Shown: positions 51,001-60,705 of the stretch, piece after piece
Position numbering within the stretch: the stretch's first letter is position 1
How the letters are laid out: each line of letters starts with the position of its first letter
NCBI RefSeq assembly: GCF_009914755.1
Contig: NC_060940.1
Length of the DNA stretch: 64,000 nt
DNA from: the human T2T-CHM13v2.0 reference genome, Homo sapiens
Strand: one strand, 5' to 3'
Notes under the pieces: model-generated
What the model was told of the DNA's origin: nothing
What the model saw: the letters and a program-made list of their open reading frames with translations, nothing else
The model's database searches: none
Position numbers and translations under genes: made by a program

Positions 51001-51320
51001 AGTCTCTTAGCGGGAGGGATACCCACAGAACACACTCAGGAAAAACAAAGCAGCTTTCTCATCCAGAGTCCTCAACAATCACCAGTCACCTTCAGTTATC
51101 TTTGAAGAAAGGACTAGAAAGAATGAAAGAAGCTGTGAAAAGTCAGATAATTTTCAAGACCTTTTCACTTCTGTTTCTGTAGAAAAAATGAAATGGAACC
51201 AGTTGGCAAGTGTGTCAGGTGTCAGGGAAATCTGATTAATGACACCCTTCTATATGACAATCATTAATAACCATGGGATAAAATAAGGGATAGAAAAAAC
51301 GCATGCAGTAAAGCTTTTCT

Positions 51321-51326
51321 TTTATT
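51321..51326 (-). terminator. Candidate distal polyadenylation signal AATAAA
   Basis: TTTATT on the + strand; on the minus strand it follows a U/AU-rich tract typical of mRNA 3' ends. Confidence 0.5.
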
Positions 51327-52974
51327 GAATTTTATATTTATCATACCAGTTAAAAAAAAACCAAGAAAATAAAATAAATATTACAGTAAAAAAGGGACAT
51401 GCACGTGGCGATTCTTGGCACAGAAAGAGGGCGTGCTGCGTGACAAATATTTCAATCAGATCATATCGCTCAACAGAGGTGCACTGCGGTTTTTTGTTCG
51501 TTTTTGTAGAGGTAGTTTGGGAGCATGGTGGGTGCCCCTGAGCTCCAGCCTCTTCTGGAGGTATGTGCTACTCTGGTCACACCCAGGTGAGGTTGGGGCA
51601 CAGGGCCGGGCATCTCTGCACCCTTCCCCAACCCTGGCTCCTCAGAAGGGCAGTCCCTGCTGGCAGCGCCCATGGGGCTGGTGGAGAGGAGGTGGGACTG
51701 AGCTGTAGTTGGAGGACCCAGCGGCCTCCTCCTCTTGTCACAGGTGTAAACCCCCCAGTGTGCCGTCTGCACCCCTAATGCTGCTTCTGCTTCTGGAGAA
51801 CCCAAGCCACCGCAGCCAGTCACAAGGAGATGATGGCGATGGCCCCCACATTGTCACCTCATTTGTTCAATTCTTCCATGGAGAGGTCCCTGAGGCGTCC
51901 AGTCCAGGCAGTGGTTCCTGCTCCTGACTGCTCTTCCCTCGCAGCCGCCAGCCCAGCATCCCCAGGCCTAAATCAAGCCCCAGGGCCTTCCACAGCCGCC
52001 CACAGCCCACAGCACAGGAGCTTCCTGGGCAGGCACCTGGAAACCAGCCCTTCTTGCCTTCTAGTCTCTGGTCTCCCCAGGATAGGTCCTCAGCGTTTGC
52101 AAGTGTGATGCCAAGGCCATGCCAGTTCTGGGCCTTTACCTGCAGGCCATTCATGCCCCGGTGCCCTCACCCCTCTTCCCAGACCCCCCTCCTCGCCCAG
52201 GGTACCCCCCCCCCCCCCACCGAGCAGCCCCTGTGGGCCTCTCCGCCCGGTGCACCTCCCTGCCTGCGCTCCAGGCTTCGAGGCTCCACTCTGTTCATGG
52301 AATATTCCAGAGTGACTGCCTTCTCTCCCCACCTCCTCCGAACAGAGGCTGCCCAGATTAAATATTCCTTTCCCTCATGGCAATCTGTGTGGTGCCAACC
52401 TTGCTCTCACTGTGGGCTGTGGGCACAGCGGCCAATGGGGCCGCAGATGAGGCCACCCCTCTTCATGGGGGTCTCTTACGAGGACACAGTTCATAGCAGA
52501 TGCTCCCACGCCCATAACACAGATGACCTTCCCTGGGAGGGGTCGGTTCTCCAGACAGGCTGCCAGGAAAAGCAGAGATCAGTGGGGCACATGGGCAGGA
52601 ATACTTCCGAAGCAGGGGGTCACAGGCAAAGCTCCGAATAGCACATTTCTGGAGCACATTGTGTAGGAGAGCAGAGACTCCCCACTCAGACCCCCTTTTA
52701 GTGTCAGCTTGTTGACACTCAGATGCTTCTCAGAAGCTGGTAGCACTTCCTCCATCCAATCACTGAGGTGCCAGCCCCACCCATGGCTGAGGGCCAGGGC
52801 TGCCTGTGTGAAAGGCAACCACCCGGCTCCGTGCCCACCACCCAGGCCACCCCACACAGACTCTTCCTCGCTCCACTTCTTAAAGCCTGCCTTGCCCAGG
52901 GCCTGCCGGCTCCCTCCAGGGTCCAGGTCCTAATGGGCTCAGGTGCTACCATTGCCCAGCCCTGCCCCTCAGCC

Positions 52975-53220
52975 TCAGGGGTTGGAGGGAGCTCCTGCCA
53001 GTCTGGTTGCTCTGACACCCACTGCTGCTTCTCTTGCCTGGTCTTGATGAGCCTCTCTTTGTCTGAGTTCTTCAGACTGGGCTGCTTCCTGCCAGGACCT
53101 GGTGCCAGGCTGTGGGAGAGGTCCCGTCTCGGCCACTCTGAACACATAGGGTGCTTTCTTGGACAAGCACAGCAAATCTCTGTGCTTCTGAAGATACCTT
53201 GTGGGACATGCAGAGCTCAT
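52975..53220 (-). CDS. Putative DUSP22 alternative terminal exon, coding part (MSSACPTRYLQKHRDLLCLSKKAPYVFRV...GAPSNP*)
   Basis: Pyrimidine-rich acceptor ctttctgttctcgatgctccatctctgtgaaag| lies directly before an 81-codon frame; AATAAA downstream at 51326-51321. Prediction only. Confidence 0.4.
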   Translation of the reverse strand: MSSACPTRYLQKHRDLLCLSKKAPYVFRVAETGPLPQPGTRSWQEAAQSEELRQREAHQDQAREAAVGVRATRLAGAPSNP

Positions 53221-54858
53221 CTTTCACAGAGATGGAGCATCGAGAACAGAAAGCACCCACCACTGCACACACAGGCAACTCTATATTCCTGCGGGGGGCA
53301 ACCCAGGGCCCAGGACACCCAGTACCCAGCCAGTTACTGCAGGCTAAGGCAGAAAGGTCCGGGCAGAGGCGTGCGTGGTTGTCCTGCTGCAACCCTTTGG
53401 TTGCAAGAAGCAAGAAGTGAATCTCTGCCACTCCCTACCTTCCCACACTCTACAAGGCCTCTAATCGAATGCACGCCCATCCTCAGGGAAGAACTTCAAC
53501 ACAGTGGCACGTGATTGCTGGCACTGCGTGGGTTTCACCCTCCTCTCGTGATTCCCCCTCAAAGGCACTGGGGTGACTGTAGGCGCACCTTGCCTGTGAC
53601 TGGGGTCAGGCTGCTTGCATTCCAGTCCTGACCTGGCTGCCTCCTGGCTGTCAGACTAGAGTTCAGTGTCTTCATCTGAAAGCGAGGATCATAGTAAAAC
53701 CTATCTCACAAGATGGTGGTGAGGACTTGATTTCAAAAGAAAAGGTCCTCTGCCAGTTCTCGCCATGCATCAGCGCCCAATGGCTGTTGGCCGTGCTCAG
53801 GTTGACCACCCTGCCATCTAATGGGAGGTCTTTGGGGATAGAAGGGGCCTTCCCAGACACATCAAATGCCACCAGCCAGGGTGCTGTCTGCACCCCTCAT
53901 CCCTTCTAGGGAGTTTTTTTCATGGCAGTGGAGGGGAAAAGTTCCCCACATGAGTGTGTTGCCTCCTCAGGGACTTCCCCAAGGTATTCCAGAGAATCAG
54001 GACCCAACTGAACCTCAGCCAGGCCCGCCTGGCCCCAGCCACTTCAAGACTCTCATCTGCTGATACCACCTCTGCCCCAACCTGTGCTCCTGGTGGTCCT
54101 GGGAGCCGGAGGGTCACGGTGACGGGAGGGCCTGGCAAGGCATGGAGCGGGCCTCTTGCTGTGGAAGTGACTTTCCAGGCATGAAATGATGGCAGCCCAC
54201 CCTTCTGCACCCCTCTCGGCCACACCTGAACCTGCAAACAGCCGCTGTAACAGCCAAGAGTCGGTTCCTCTCCTCTCACACCTTCCTGGCGTTCCCCGTG
54301 TCACCACATTGGCCCAGCTTAACACAAAACCCAGGAGAATCCCAGCAGCTGACCCTGGCACATGACAGGCCTCTCCCAGGACACTGGCTCTGAGGAAGCT
54401 CTGTGCGGCTGGGCCTGTTGCCATGAAGGGTACACCCTTTGTAAAGCAGAAGGTGACATTTCTTGGGTGCACGTGTTGGAGTCTTCTGATTCTTATTTTC
54501 CAAAAAGGCTGCCCATCAGTGTCTGGGGAAACCCAGCGCTGACTGACAAGCAGCAGACCTGCTCACCAGCAAGGTGCACTTCCTGTCTGTGCTGATGGGG
54601 CCGCTTCTGGGGGTGGGTGCCCGAGGCCCAGGGCAGAACAATGGACGACGTGCCTCTGCGGGGAGAGAGGGGCCAAGCTTCCTACCACTACTGTGCATCG
54701 TGGGGGCTGCTGCGTGGTGATGTGGCTCCTCGGGCCAAGCTGGGAAGGCGGCTCTTGCTGGGATTAGCACTTTTCCAAGCCCTGTCCTCCAAACATTATT
54801 CCTTGAAGGAATTATTAACCCAAAAAGCATCCCCCTAACCTCACCCCCGTCATCTAGG

Positions 54859-55161
54859 TTTTTGTTTGTTTGTTTTCCAGACGGAGTTTCACTCTTATTG
54901 CGGAGGCTGGAGTGCAATGGTGTGATCTCCGCTCACTGCAACCTCCACTTCCTGGGTTTAAGCGATTCTCCTGCCTCAGCTTCCCAAGTAGCTGGGATTA
55001 CAGGCACCTGCCACCACGCCCAGCTAATTTTTTGTATTTTTAGTAGAGACAGGGTTTCACCATGATGGCCAGGCTGGTCTTGAACTCCTGACCTCAAGTG
55101 ATCCACCTACCTTGGCCTCCCAAATTGCTGGGATGACAGGCGTGAGCCACCCCACCCGGCC
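54859..55161 (-). mobile_element. AluS-like
   Basis: Antisense Alu motifs. Confidence 0.9.
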
Positions 55162-60033: not shown

Positions 60034-60052
60034 TAGCGCCTTCTGGAGGCAA
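60034..60052 (-). promoter_or_regulatory. Candidate CTCF site
   Basis: Minus strand TTGCCTCCAGAAGGCGCTA versus consensus TGGCCACCAGGGGGCGCTA. Confidence 0.4.
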
Positions 60053-60191
60053 ACAATAGCCTCTAAAATAAAACCAGGAGTAGGCTTCAGTCTTGCCTTG
60101 GAATCCCTCACAGGCAGAAGGGCGCGTGGTGACTGCCCCTTGGCTAGGGAAGAATGCATCGCACGCGACCTTAAACTTGGCTAAGTTGCCC

Positions 60192-60197
60192 TTTATT
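60192..60197 (-). terminator. DUSP22 proximal polyadenylation signal AATAAA
   Basis: TTTATT on the + strand, about 460 nt downstream of the exon 8 stop. Confidence 0.75.
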
Positions 60198-60658
60198 AAC
60201 GAAAACATAGAGCTTTCGGTCAATTCCACCACGGAGAACACAAACCAGAGATAAAACCCACACCAAGGGCTATTTCCCAAGCTGGGGAATTTGAGAACAC
60301 ACGGGCAGAGTTCACGCCACACAACTACACTGGGCTCGTCCTTGGGAGGCGTTCACAGGAAGCAATCACAAGCGCCAAGCCACCCACAAGGCAGTGCGGC
60401 AAGGCTCCCGGGATCCTTACAGGCATCCAAGCGAGGTACAGAAACCTCCACAGCAGTGGGGATAAGGGGAAAATATTTTCTCTTGCTAAAGAATATCCTT
60501 AGTTCTCAACATAAACATGACTACGTATATATTCAGCTTCAAATGAAAAACAAGTTTACAAATCACTACTGGATACTTAAACTCTTATGTTGCTTTTCTT
60601 TTTGGCAGCACCAGCCTAAACTCTGTGGGTTTGCAATATTTCAGAAACTTCAGGTACA

Positions 60659-60705
60659 TTACAGTCTTCTGAGAAAGGCCCAGAACTTCAGAATTCCCGG
60701 AGCGG
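60659..60705 (-). CDS. DUSP22: DUSP22 exon 8 coding part: 184-aa isoform C-terminus (AAPGILKFWAFLRRL*)
   Basis: ttcttcacag| acceptor; phase 1 matches the exon 7 donor (G|CC); TAA at 60661-60659. Confidence 0.95.

What the first reader, a model, noticed from the sequence alone, without database searches (positions are those of the whole stretch)
51305..60705. Hidden phase-compatible exon chain that would extend DUSP22 to ~279 aa
Seen: the 184-aa stop lies inside a possible 5' splice site (AGA CT|GTAATG), much as the 205-aa form arises by reading through the exon 7 donor (CTG G|GTAAAT). Using it gives a 43-nt exon (60705-60663) ending in phase 2. About 1.5 kb further on is a 43-nt exon-like unit (59148-59106: ctgctctgcag|GTCCCGA...GAGAAG|gtattt) that needs phase 2 in and gives phase 0 out, restoring L184 and adding SRTVAPKLFKLTEK. 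At 53220 a pyrimidine-rich acceptor precedes a phase-0, 81-codon frame (MSSACPTRYLQKHRDLLCLSKKAPYVFRVAETG...), followed by a ~1.65-kb UTR-like stretch and AATAAA at 51326-51321. Inference: both familiar isoforms may be intronic-termination products of a longer gene model with a basic C-terminal tail; direct exon 7 to 59148 splicing would give another end (GPELLPLSFLN*). Caveat: the CT|GTAATG donor is weak, and I cannot check whether such isoforms are already predicted.
Basis: partly seen in the sequence, partly recalled or inferred. Interest (0 to 1): 0.8.

Follow-up and report, generated by a model that had tools for sequence, protein, structure and literature searches.

The report
Chance exon chain downstream of DUSP22B
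The proposed hidden exons that would lengthen the phosphatase DUSP22 are real strings in the DNA but look like a chance assembly of weak splice-like sites, although the far end of the stretch does match an alternative last exon used in one macaque gene model.

Summary
The chain is no more than chance gives. With a rough, recalled splice-site matrix, two of its four sites score below zero (donor ACT|GTAATG -2.21; acceptor aag|ATG -1.43). The same 9.4 kb holds 19 in-frame internal exon candidates at least as good and 109 full chains with tails of 81 codons or more. All 12 control tiles and 96 of 100 simulated sequences also give such chains. The 81-codon frame is one of 68 open frames of 70 aa or more in 9.8 kb, has no Pfam match and no believable homolog. 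None of the 120 listed mammalian DUSP22 protein models carries any of the chain's peptides. The supplied RefSeq table shows no exon below 60171.

One part gets outside support. A bonobo model uses another distal exon starting at 50468. No RNA data could be examined.

The parts
60171..60705 (-). Last exon (exon 8) of the chr16 DUSP22 paralog (DUSP22B). Its coding part is 60705-60663, followed by the TAA stop at 60662-60660, the 3' UTR and the poly(A) signal AATAAA at 60197-60192.
   Evidence: Supplied gene table; sequence; translation ...NILAAPGILKFWAFLRRL*; AATAAA.
60657..60665 (-). Proposed 5' splice site ACT|GTAATG that overlaps the stop codon. It is a very weak site: only GTAA matches the consensus.
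   Evidence: rough matrix score -2.21, against 7.15 and 1.22 for the annotated exon 6 and exon 7 donors; rank 183 of 640 GT sites.
59106..59148 (-). It is most likely a chance AG...GT pair in intergenic DNA.
   Evidence: acceptor 1.76, donor 1.62; it is the weakest of 19 comparable open candidates; its peptide occurs in 0 of 120 DUSP22 models; the stretch is single copy apart from the chr6 paralog.
52975..53220 (-). It is most likely a composition-driven open frame.
   Evidence: One search gives the translation. One search shows it is overlapped by a 165-aa frame on the same strand and a 256-aa frame on the other strand; acceptor score -1.43; no family and no homolog. GC3 of 0.52 is the lowest of its three codon positions.
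51300..51792 (-). Human counterpart of the terminal exon of the Macaca mulatta DUSP22 model A0A1D5R5B9. The acceptor is ttctccag|AA at 51792. There are 107 open codons when entered from exon 7, a stop at 51472-51470, and AATAAA at 51326-51321. The 3' end near 51300 is inferred.
   Evidence: tblastn of P0015 residues 171-270 onto 51790-51491, 81% identity, E 5e-48; acceptor and translation; no other protein carries this tail.
50329..50468 (-). Human counterpart of the terminal coding exon of Pan paniscus DUSP22 isoform X5. The acceptor is tgtttcag|G at 50468 and the stop is at 50331-50329.
   Evidence: exon 7 phase plus this exon gives GSCCTPRASKDSCGGPSSSLRAADTKSVYPSQKERSLGAACAPRCY, 46 of 46 identical to the P0008 tail. 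Acceptor score 4.56, rank 17 of 912.
54859..56642 (.). Two Alu elements in opposite orientation (about 56642-56344 and 55166-54859). They supply 5 of the 19 chance exon candidates.
   Evidence: hundreds of 80-89% matches genome-wide to these two stretches; candidates starting at 56599 and 55183.

Best explanation
The stretch 51305-60705 holds the last exon of the human-specific chr16 copy of DUSP22 (DUSP22B). It is followed by about 9 kb of intergenic DNA copied from 6p25.3. Such frames are common in this GC-rich, stop-poor DNA. The chain most likely makes no protein. The only piece with outside support is the far end. The roughly 490 nt upstream of AATAAA 51326 corresponds to an alternative last exon that a macaque gene model joins directly to exon 7, in a different frame. 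Shown here: the strings, the chance rates, the absence of the chain's peptides from the listed models, and the matches to the macaque and bonobo models. Inferred: that the chain is not spliced in human cells, since no RNA data were available.
For: Sites. By a recalled rough matrix, donor 60663 scores -2.21 and acceptor 53220 scores -1.43. The annotated sites score 1.22 to 7.48.
Chance. There are 19 equal-or-better open internal exons, 1,263 chains, and 109 chains with tails of 81 codons or more in the same 9,363 nt. Twelve of 12 control tiles and 96 of 100 simulations also yield long-tail chains.
Open frames. There are 68 stop-to-stop frames of 70 aa or more in 51000-60800. The 81-codon frame is overlapped by frames of 165 and 256 aa. 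Its GC3 is the lowest codon position.
Homology. Pfam gives 0 families. A search of 1.84 billion representatives gave 2 hits, both tandem-repeat proteins matched in 6-10 stretches. A search of longer proteins gave 0 of 233 candidates.
Gene models. Of 120 listed DUSP22 models (466 passed the threshold), 0 contain any of the five chain peptides at 4 or fewer substitutions. Their tails are 26 of the 184-aa type, 35 of the 205-aa type, 49 other and 10 unclassifiable.
Annotation and print. The supplied RefSeq table shows no exon of the 17 transcripts below 60171. In passages of PMC5356586, four splice variants were studied and only the 205-aa form was seen at the protein level in blood lymphocytes.
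Distal exon. P0015 matches 51790-51491 and P0008 matches the exon starting at 50468.
Against: No RNA-seq junction or long-read data could be queried, so absence of splicing is inferred and not observed. The splice matrix is a recalled approximation, not MaxEntScan. Only 120 of the 466 DUSP22 models were seen. A 14-residue peptide is hard to find by any search. The real region has more candidate exons (19) than the control median (6.5) and the simulation mean (7.5, sd 3.9, max 21). Five of the 19 overlap Alu elements. Macaque and bonobo models show that transcripts can run through this DNA in primates, so cryptic exons here could be used at a low level. One poor lemur model (P0094) ends ...RRLSRP, which resembles the chain's RRL-SR start. 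The paralog comparison has no power: 0 differences in the chain against about 1 expected at 38 differing columns per 11 kb.
Confidence: 0.85

Rival explanations
1. The donor inside the stop codon is used, the 43-nt exon at 59148-59106 is included, and the transcript ends after the 81-codon frame at AATAAA 51326, giving a 279-aa protein.
For: All four sites have canonical GT/AG and the phases fit. The 59148 acceptor and the 59106 donor are in the upper tenth of sites in the region, rank 60 of 912 and 52 of 640. A lemur model ends RRLSRP.
Against: Donor and final acceptor score below zero. There are 109 equally good chains in the same DNA, and controls give the same. The chain's peptides occur in 0 of 120 models. 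The tail has no homolog. The supplied table has no RefSeq exon below 60171. The lemur extension is exactly 3 residues. That is the distance from the human TAA to the next in-frame TGA (TAA TGT ACC TGA). A lost stop codon therefore fits better than splicing, and that model is garbled elsewhere.
Confidence: 0.04
2. Human DUSP22 or DUSP22B does use distal alternative last exons, but the macaque-type (51792) or bonobo-type (50468) ones, joined directly to exon 7. The predicted proteins are about 276 aa or 215 aa. These would be low-level splicing variants without a conserved function.
For: The human window keeps both acceptors and open frames: 107 codons from 51792, and 46 of 46 residues identical to the bonobo tail from 50468. 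The bonobo cluster holds 11 member sequences. AATAAA follows the macaque-type frame.
Against: The supplied RefSeq table for this human copy has no such exon. The macaque tail occurs in one protein only. Human and macaque tails are 81% identical, about what unconstrained DNA gives by my recalled estimate of roughly 6-7% neutral divergence. The chr6 and chr16 copies differ by two amino-acid changes in 107 codons. The 51792 acceptor scores -0.59.
Confidence: 0.3
3. The GC-rich 51300-53300 stretch ending in AATAAA is an independent transcription unit, for example an unannotated lncRNA, and not part of DUSP22.
For: There is a sharp fall in GC from about 0.61 to 0.37 at the AATAAA-bearing end. The end is AT-rich and resembles a UTR terminus.
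Against: No gene is annotated there in the supplied table. There is no Rfam family in 50000-61000. The only external match joins it to DUSP22 exon 7. No promoter evidence was sought or found.
Confidence: 0.05

Closest known systems
Human DUSP22 184-aa and 205-aa isoforms (exon 8 spliced, or intron 7 retained)
   Same: They use the same gene, the same exon 7 donor CTG G|GTAAAT and the same exon 8. Both ends were re-derived from the window and are described in PMC5356586 (passages).
   Different: No listed model or cited paper shows these.
Macaca mulatta DUSP22 model A0A1D5R5B9 (279 aa; P0015)
   Same: It also extends DUSP22 past the usual poly(A) site and ends in the stretch just upstream of AATAAA 51326. 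By coincidence it has the same length of 279 aa.
   Different: Exon 7 is joined directly to an exon that, on the human sequence, would start at 51792. There is no 43-nt exon, the frame differs and the tail differs (GAEAALGVQTAH...). It is a single unreviewed model with no relatives carrying this tail.
Pan paniscus DUSP22 isoform X5 (P0008)
   Same: It has a distal alternative terminal exon downstream of the canonical 3' end, and the exon is intact in the human window.
   Different: Its tail is a 46-residue sequence unrelated to the chain's.
Cryptic or pseudo-exons and splicing noise in intergenic or intronic DNA, including Alu exonisation (general knowledge)
   Same: These are weak GT/AG pairs with open frames that occur at chance frequency. 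Five of the 19 candidates overlap Alu elements. The M. fascicularis X1 model carries an Alu-derived tail.
   Different: Nothing differs; this is the class to which the chain most likely belongs.

Membership tests
Genuine DUSP22 coding exon or isoform | Splice sites of workable strength at every junction | tested here: not met
   Donor 60663 scores -2.21 and acceptor 53220 scores -1.43 on a rough recalled matrix. Annotated sites score 1.22 to 7.48. MaxEntScan was not available.
Genuine DUSP22 coding exon or isoform | Presence in transcript-based or predicted gene models | tested here: not met
   The chain's peptides occur in 0 of 120 listed mammalian DUSP22 models. The supplied RefSeq table has no exon below 60171. 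The other 346 of 466 models were not seen.
Genuine DUSP22 coding exon or isoform | Occurrence beyond the chance expectation | tested here: not met
   There are 109 comparable chains in the same DNA. Twelve of 12 control tiles and 96 of 100 simulations also have them.
Genuine DUSP22 coding exon or isoform | Protein-level homology or a known domain in the added tail | tested here: not met
   Pfam gives 0 families. No real homolog was found.
Genuine DUSP22 coding exon or isoform | Cross-species conservation of frame and splice dinucleotides | not testable with these tools
   No vertebrate genomes are held. The chr6 paralog is identical at the chain's exons, but at 38 differing columns per 11 kb this has no power.
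Genuine DUSP22 coding exon or isoform | Spliced RNA reads across the junctions | not testable with these tools
   No RNA-seq or cDNA resource is available. Literature searches found no report.
Alternative last exon of DUSP22 (stretch 51792 to about 51300) | Acceptor, open entry frame from exon 7 and a downstream poly(A) signal | tested here: met
   The acceptor is ttctccag|AA at 51792. There are 107 open codons, and AATAAA lies at 51326-51321. The acceptor is weak (-0.59).
Alternative last exon of DUSP22 (stretch 51792 to about 51300) | Use in a gene model | tested here: inconclusive
   It is used in one macaque model only. No human model in the supplied table uses it.

The most novel reading that the evidence does not exclude
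Human DUSP22, or its human-specific copy DUSP22B, bypasses the canonical poly(A) site at 60171. The 184-aa and 205-aa forms would then be early-termination products of a larger transcription unit that reaches at least 9-10 kb further.
Probability: 0.04. Interest if true: 0.4.

Novelty: not a real feature. Interest (0 to 1): 0.12.

Why it matters
DUSP22 is a tumour suppressor in T-cell lymphoma. Its chr16 copy is a human-specific duplicate, so an unrecognised longer isoform would matter for antibody, knock-out and variant interpretation. The evidence here says the proposed isoform is an artefact of reading open frames and GT/AG pairs in GC-rich intergenic DNA. The useful residue is a caution and a pointer. 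Distal last exons at 51792 and 50468 are intact in both human copies and are used in macaque and bonobo models, so they are the junctions worth looking for in human RNA data.

Tried and rejected
- Two whole-genome DNA searches with 10-20 kb queries were swamped by Alu and other repeats and said nothing about the paralog. They were replaced by fetching chr6 directly and aligning.
- Earlier findings of this scan were not open.
- Rfam on 50000-61000 gave 0 families.
- Pfam on the 81-aa frame and on two neighbouring frames gave nothing below E 0.2.
- The two hits to the 81-aa frame in the representative library are tandem-repeat proteins matched in 6-10 stretches. I rejected them as homologs.
- The AT-rich end at 51397-51280 has four weak matches elsewhere in the genome (74-81% over 74-114 nt). 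I could not tell whether this is an old repeat or low complexity, and did not pursue it.
- I considered the lemur model ending RRLSRP as support for the stop-codon donor and set it aside. Three extra residues equal the distance to the next in-frame TGA, and the model is garbled elsewhere.
- Literature searches for DUSP22 with 'long-read'/'isoform', 'intronic polyadenylation' and 'alternative last exon' returned no paper describing exons downstream of the canonical 3' end (listings and DUSP22 passages only).
- A fuzzy string match of the bonobo-type exon on chr6 misaligned and was redone by alignment.
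Full report
Setting. The window is T2T-CHM13 chr16:34906001-34970000 (supplied table; confirmed). The DUSP22 copy on the minus strand is the human-specific paralog called DUSP22B in PMC8321529 (passages). 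Aligning the window to 50 kb fetched from contig C6 shows that window 27439-64000 is a copy of chr6 about 240842-202482. Within 50500-61500 the two copies differ at 38 alignment columns in 11 kb.

Observation. Exon 8 starts at 60705 behind cacag|. It reads ...AAPGILKFWAFLRRL and stops at TAA 60662-60660, so the text is AGA CT|GTAATG. The unit ctgctctgcag|GTCCCGAACTG...GAGAAG|gtattt is at 59148-59106 and is 43 nt long. Entered with the two carried bases it reads L-SRTVAPKLFKLTEK. At 53220, ctgtgaaag|ATG opens 81 codons ending at TGA 52977-52975. AATAAA is at 51326-51321. It is the first AATAAA on this strand after the gene's own signal at 60197-60192. The 205-aa end, produced by reading through the exon 7 donor, was also reproduced.

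Is it more than chance? It is approximate, and MaxEntScan was not available.
- The donor inside the stop codon scores -2.21, and only GTAA fits the consensus.
- The 59106 donor scores 1.62, the 59148 acceptor 1.76 and the 53220 acceptor -1.43.
- The annotated exon 6 and exon 7 donors score 7.15 and 1.22. The exon 7 and exon 8 acceptors score 7.48 and 4.90.
- In 60662-49500 the four sites rank 183 of 640 and 52 of 640 (GT sites), and 60 of 912 and 171 of 912 (AG sites).

I then took the chain's own scores as thresholds and enumerated alternatives.
- The 9,363 nt downstream of the stop holds 19 internal exon candidates of 20-300 nt that are open from the same phase-2 entry.
- There are 1,263 full chains, and 109 of them have a terminal frame of 81 codons or more.
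- The plus strand of the same region gives 71 such long-tail chains.
- Twelve of 12 tiles of the window (six positions, both strands) give 5 to 134.
- Ninety-six of 100 first-order Markov simulations give at least one, with a mean of 16.9.
- The real region is on the high side for internal candidates: 19 against a tile median of 6.5 and a simulation mean of 7.5 (sd 3.9, max 21). I note this as a point against my reading.

The 81-codon frame is one of 68 stop-to-stop frames of 70 aa or more in 51000-60800. It is overlapped by a 165-aa frame on the same strand and a 256-aa frame on the other strand. Its GC content is lowest at the third codon position: 0.60, 0.56 and 0.52.

Homology and gene models.
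- The 81-aa frame has no Pfam match.
- A full HMMER pass over 1.84 billion cluster representatives gave two hits. Both are tandem-repeat proteins matched in 6-10 stretches, and I do not accept them as relatives. That library is clustered at 50% identity, so a DUSP22 isoform could hide in the main cluster.
- I therefore also searched the 90%-clustered library for longer proteins. None of 233 candidates scored E of 0.001 or better.
- That library does hold mammalian gene models. Exon 6 as query returned 466 DUSP22 proteins, of which the best 120 were listed and fetched.
- None of the 120 contains SRTVAPKLFKLTEK, GPELLPLSFLN or any of three pieces of the 81-aa frame, allowing four substitutions.
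- Their tails after exon 7 fall into 26 of the 184-aa type, 35 of the 205-aa type and 49 others. In 10 the exon 7 end could not be found.
- The 346 unlisted models were not seen. The listing is ordered by similarity of exon 6, so primates should be near the top.

What is really at the far end. A tblastn of the 120 models on window 1-62600 gave four non-Alu matches downstream of the canonical 3' end.
- P0015, a Macaca mulatta UniProt model (A0A1D5R5B9, 279 aa), matches 51790-51491 with residues 171-270 at 81% identity.
- P0008, Pan paniscus isoform X5 (a cluster of 11 sequences), matches about 50499-50332.
- P0075, a horse model, matches 49844-49604.
- P0016, Macaca fascicularis X1, matches 46239-46064, partly in an Alu.

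In the human window the macaque-type exon has the acceptor ttctccag|AA at 51792 (score -0.59). Entered from exon 7 it gives 107 open codons up to the stop at 51472-51470. The AATAAA at 51326 follows. The bonobo-type exon has the good acceptor tgtttcag|G at 50468 (score 4.56, rank 17 of 912). Its 46-residue tail is identical to the bonobo protein.

The equal length of 279 aa is a coincidence: the acceptor, the frame and the peptide all differ. No other protein in the 5.8-billion library carries the macaque tail. The human and macaque tails are 81% identical. By my recalled figure of about 6-7% neutral human-macaque divergence, that is what unconstrained codons would give. The chr6 and chr16 copies differ by two amino-acid changes in this tail and by one synonymous change in the bonobo-type exon. 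I read these distal exons as low-level, unconstrained alternative ends, not as the main gene model.

The lemur lead. One model (P0094, Prolemur simus) ends ...FLRRLSRP, which resembles the chain's RRL-SR. The model is garbled in its N-terminal half. The extension is exactly three residues. In the human sequence the TAA is followed by TGT ACC TGA, so a lost stop codon that runs to the next in-frame TGA explains the length. Splicing into the 59148 unit does not, because that frame stays open for over a hundred codons. I could not examine the lemur genome.

Literature.
- PMC5356586 (passages) studied four DUSP22 splice variants: with or without intron 7, and with or without exon 4. [quoted passage not shown] It reported the 16p11.2 paralog as methylated or 5'-deleted and silent.
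- PMC8321529 (passages) found DUSP22B expressed in lymphoblastoid lines, at a lower level than DUSP22.
- PMC11463660 (passages) lists DUSP22 among families under purifying selection.
- Searches for DUSP22 with 'long-read' and 'isoform', 'intronic polyadenylation' and 'alternative last exon' found no paper describing exons beyond the canonical 3' end (passages).
- Supplements were not read and might hold isoform tables.

Verdict. The specific 279-aa chain is most likely not a real feature (confidence 0.85). The idea of a distal end near 51326 is partly right, but through a different exon already present in a public macaque model. What would change this view is junction-spanning RNA evidence, which these tools cannot supply.

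Noticed in passing
window 50329-50468 (-): An intact human counterpart of the terminal exon of Pan paniscus DUSP22 isoform X5. The acceptor is tgtttcag|G and the tail is identical at 46 of 46 residues. The chr6 copy differs by one synonymous base at 50452.
   Followed up: partly
window 49604-49844 (-): The C-terminal tail of a horse DUSP22 model (P0075, 285 aa) matches here at 67-70% amino-acid identity in two frames. This suggests sequence conserved between horse and human about 10.5 kb past the canonical 3' end.
   Followed up: no
window 46064-46239 (-): The tail of the Macaca fascicularis DUSP22 isoform X1 model (P0016) matches here at 76-89%, partly inside an Alu. It is an Alu-derived terminal exon about 14 kb downstream of the gene.
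   Followed up: no
window 37378-40474: A 39-bp minisatellite with about 82 copies at 92% matches. The chr6 counterpart spans about 225974-230881 and is longer, so the array length differs between the two paralogous blocks.
   Followed up: partly
window 27439: The chr6-derived duplicated block begins here, at chr6 about 240842. That is inside the last annotated exon (23664-31355) of the rhophilin-2-like pseudogene, so that exon model spans a duplication junction.
   Followed up: no
window 51113 and 51176 (-): Two of the four best-scoring acceptor-like sites in the 11 kb downstream of DUSP22B (rough matrix scores 9.36 and 6.93) lie just past the AATAAA at 51326. No listed model uses them.
   Followed up: no
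window 49342-49347 (-): An AATAAA on the chr16 copy reads AAAAAA on the chr6 copy (difference at 49345). This is a possible paralog-specific poly(A) signal downstream of the bonobo-type exon.
   Followed up: no
window 51280-51397 (-): The AT-rich end carrying AATAAA has four weak matches elsewhere in the genome (74-81% over 74-114 nt, on contigs 1, 4, 10 and 15). It may be an old repeat fragment or just low complexity.
   Followed up: no
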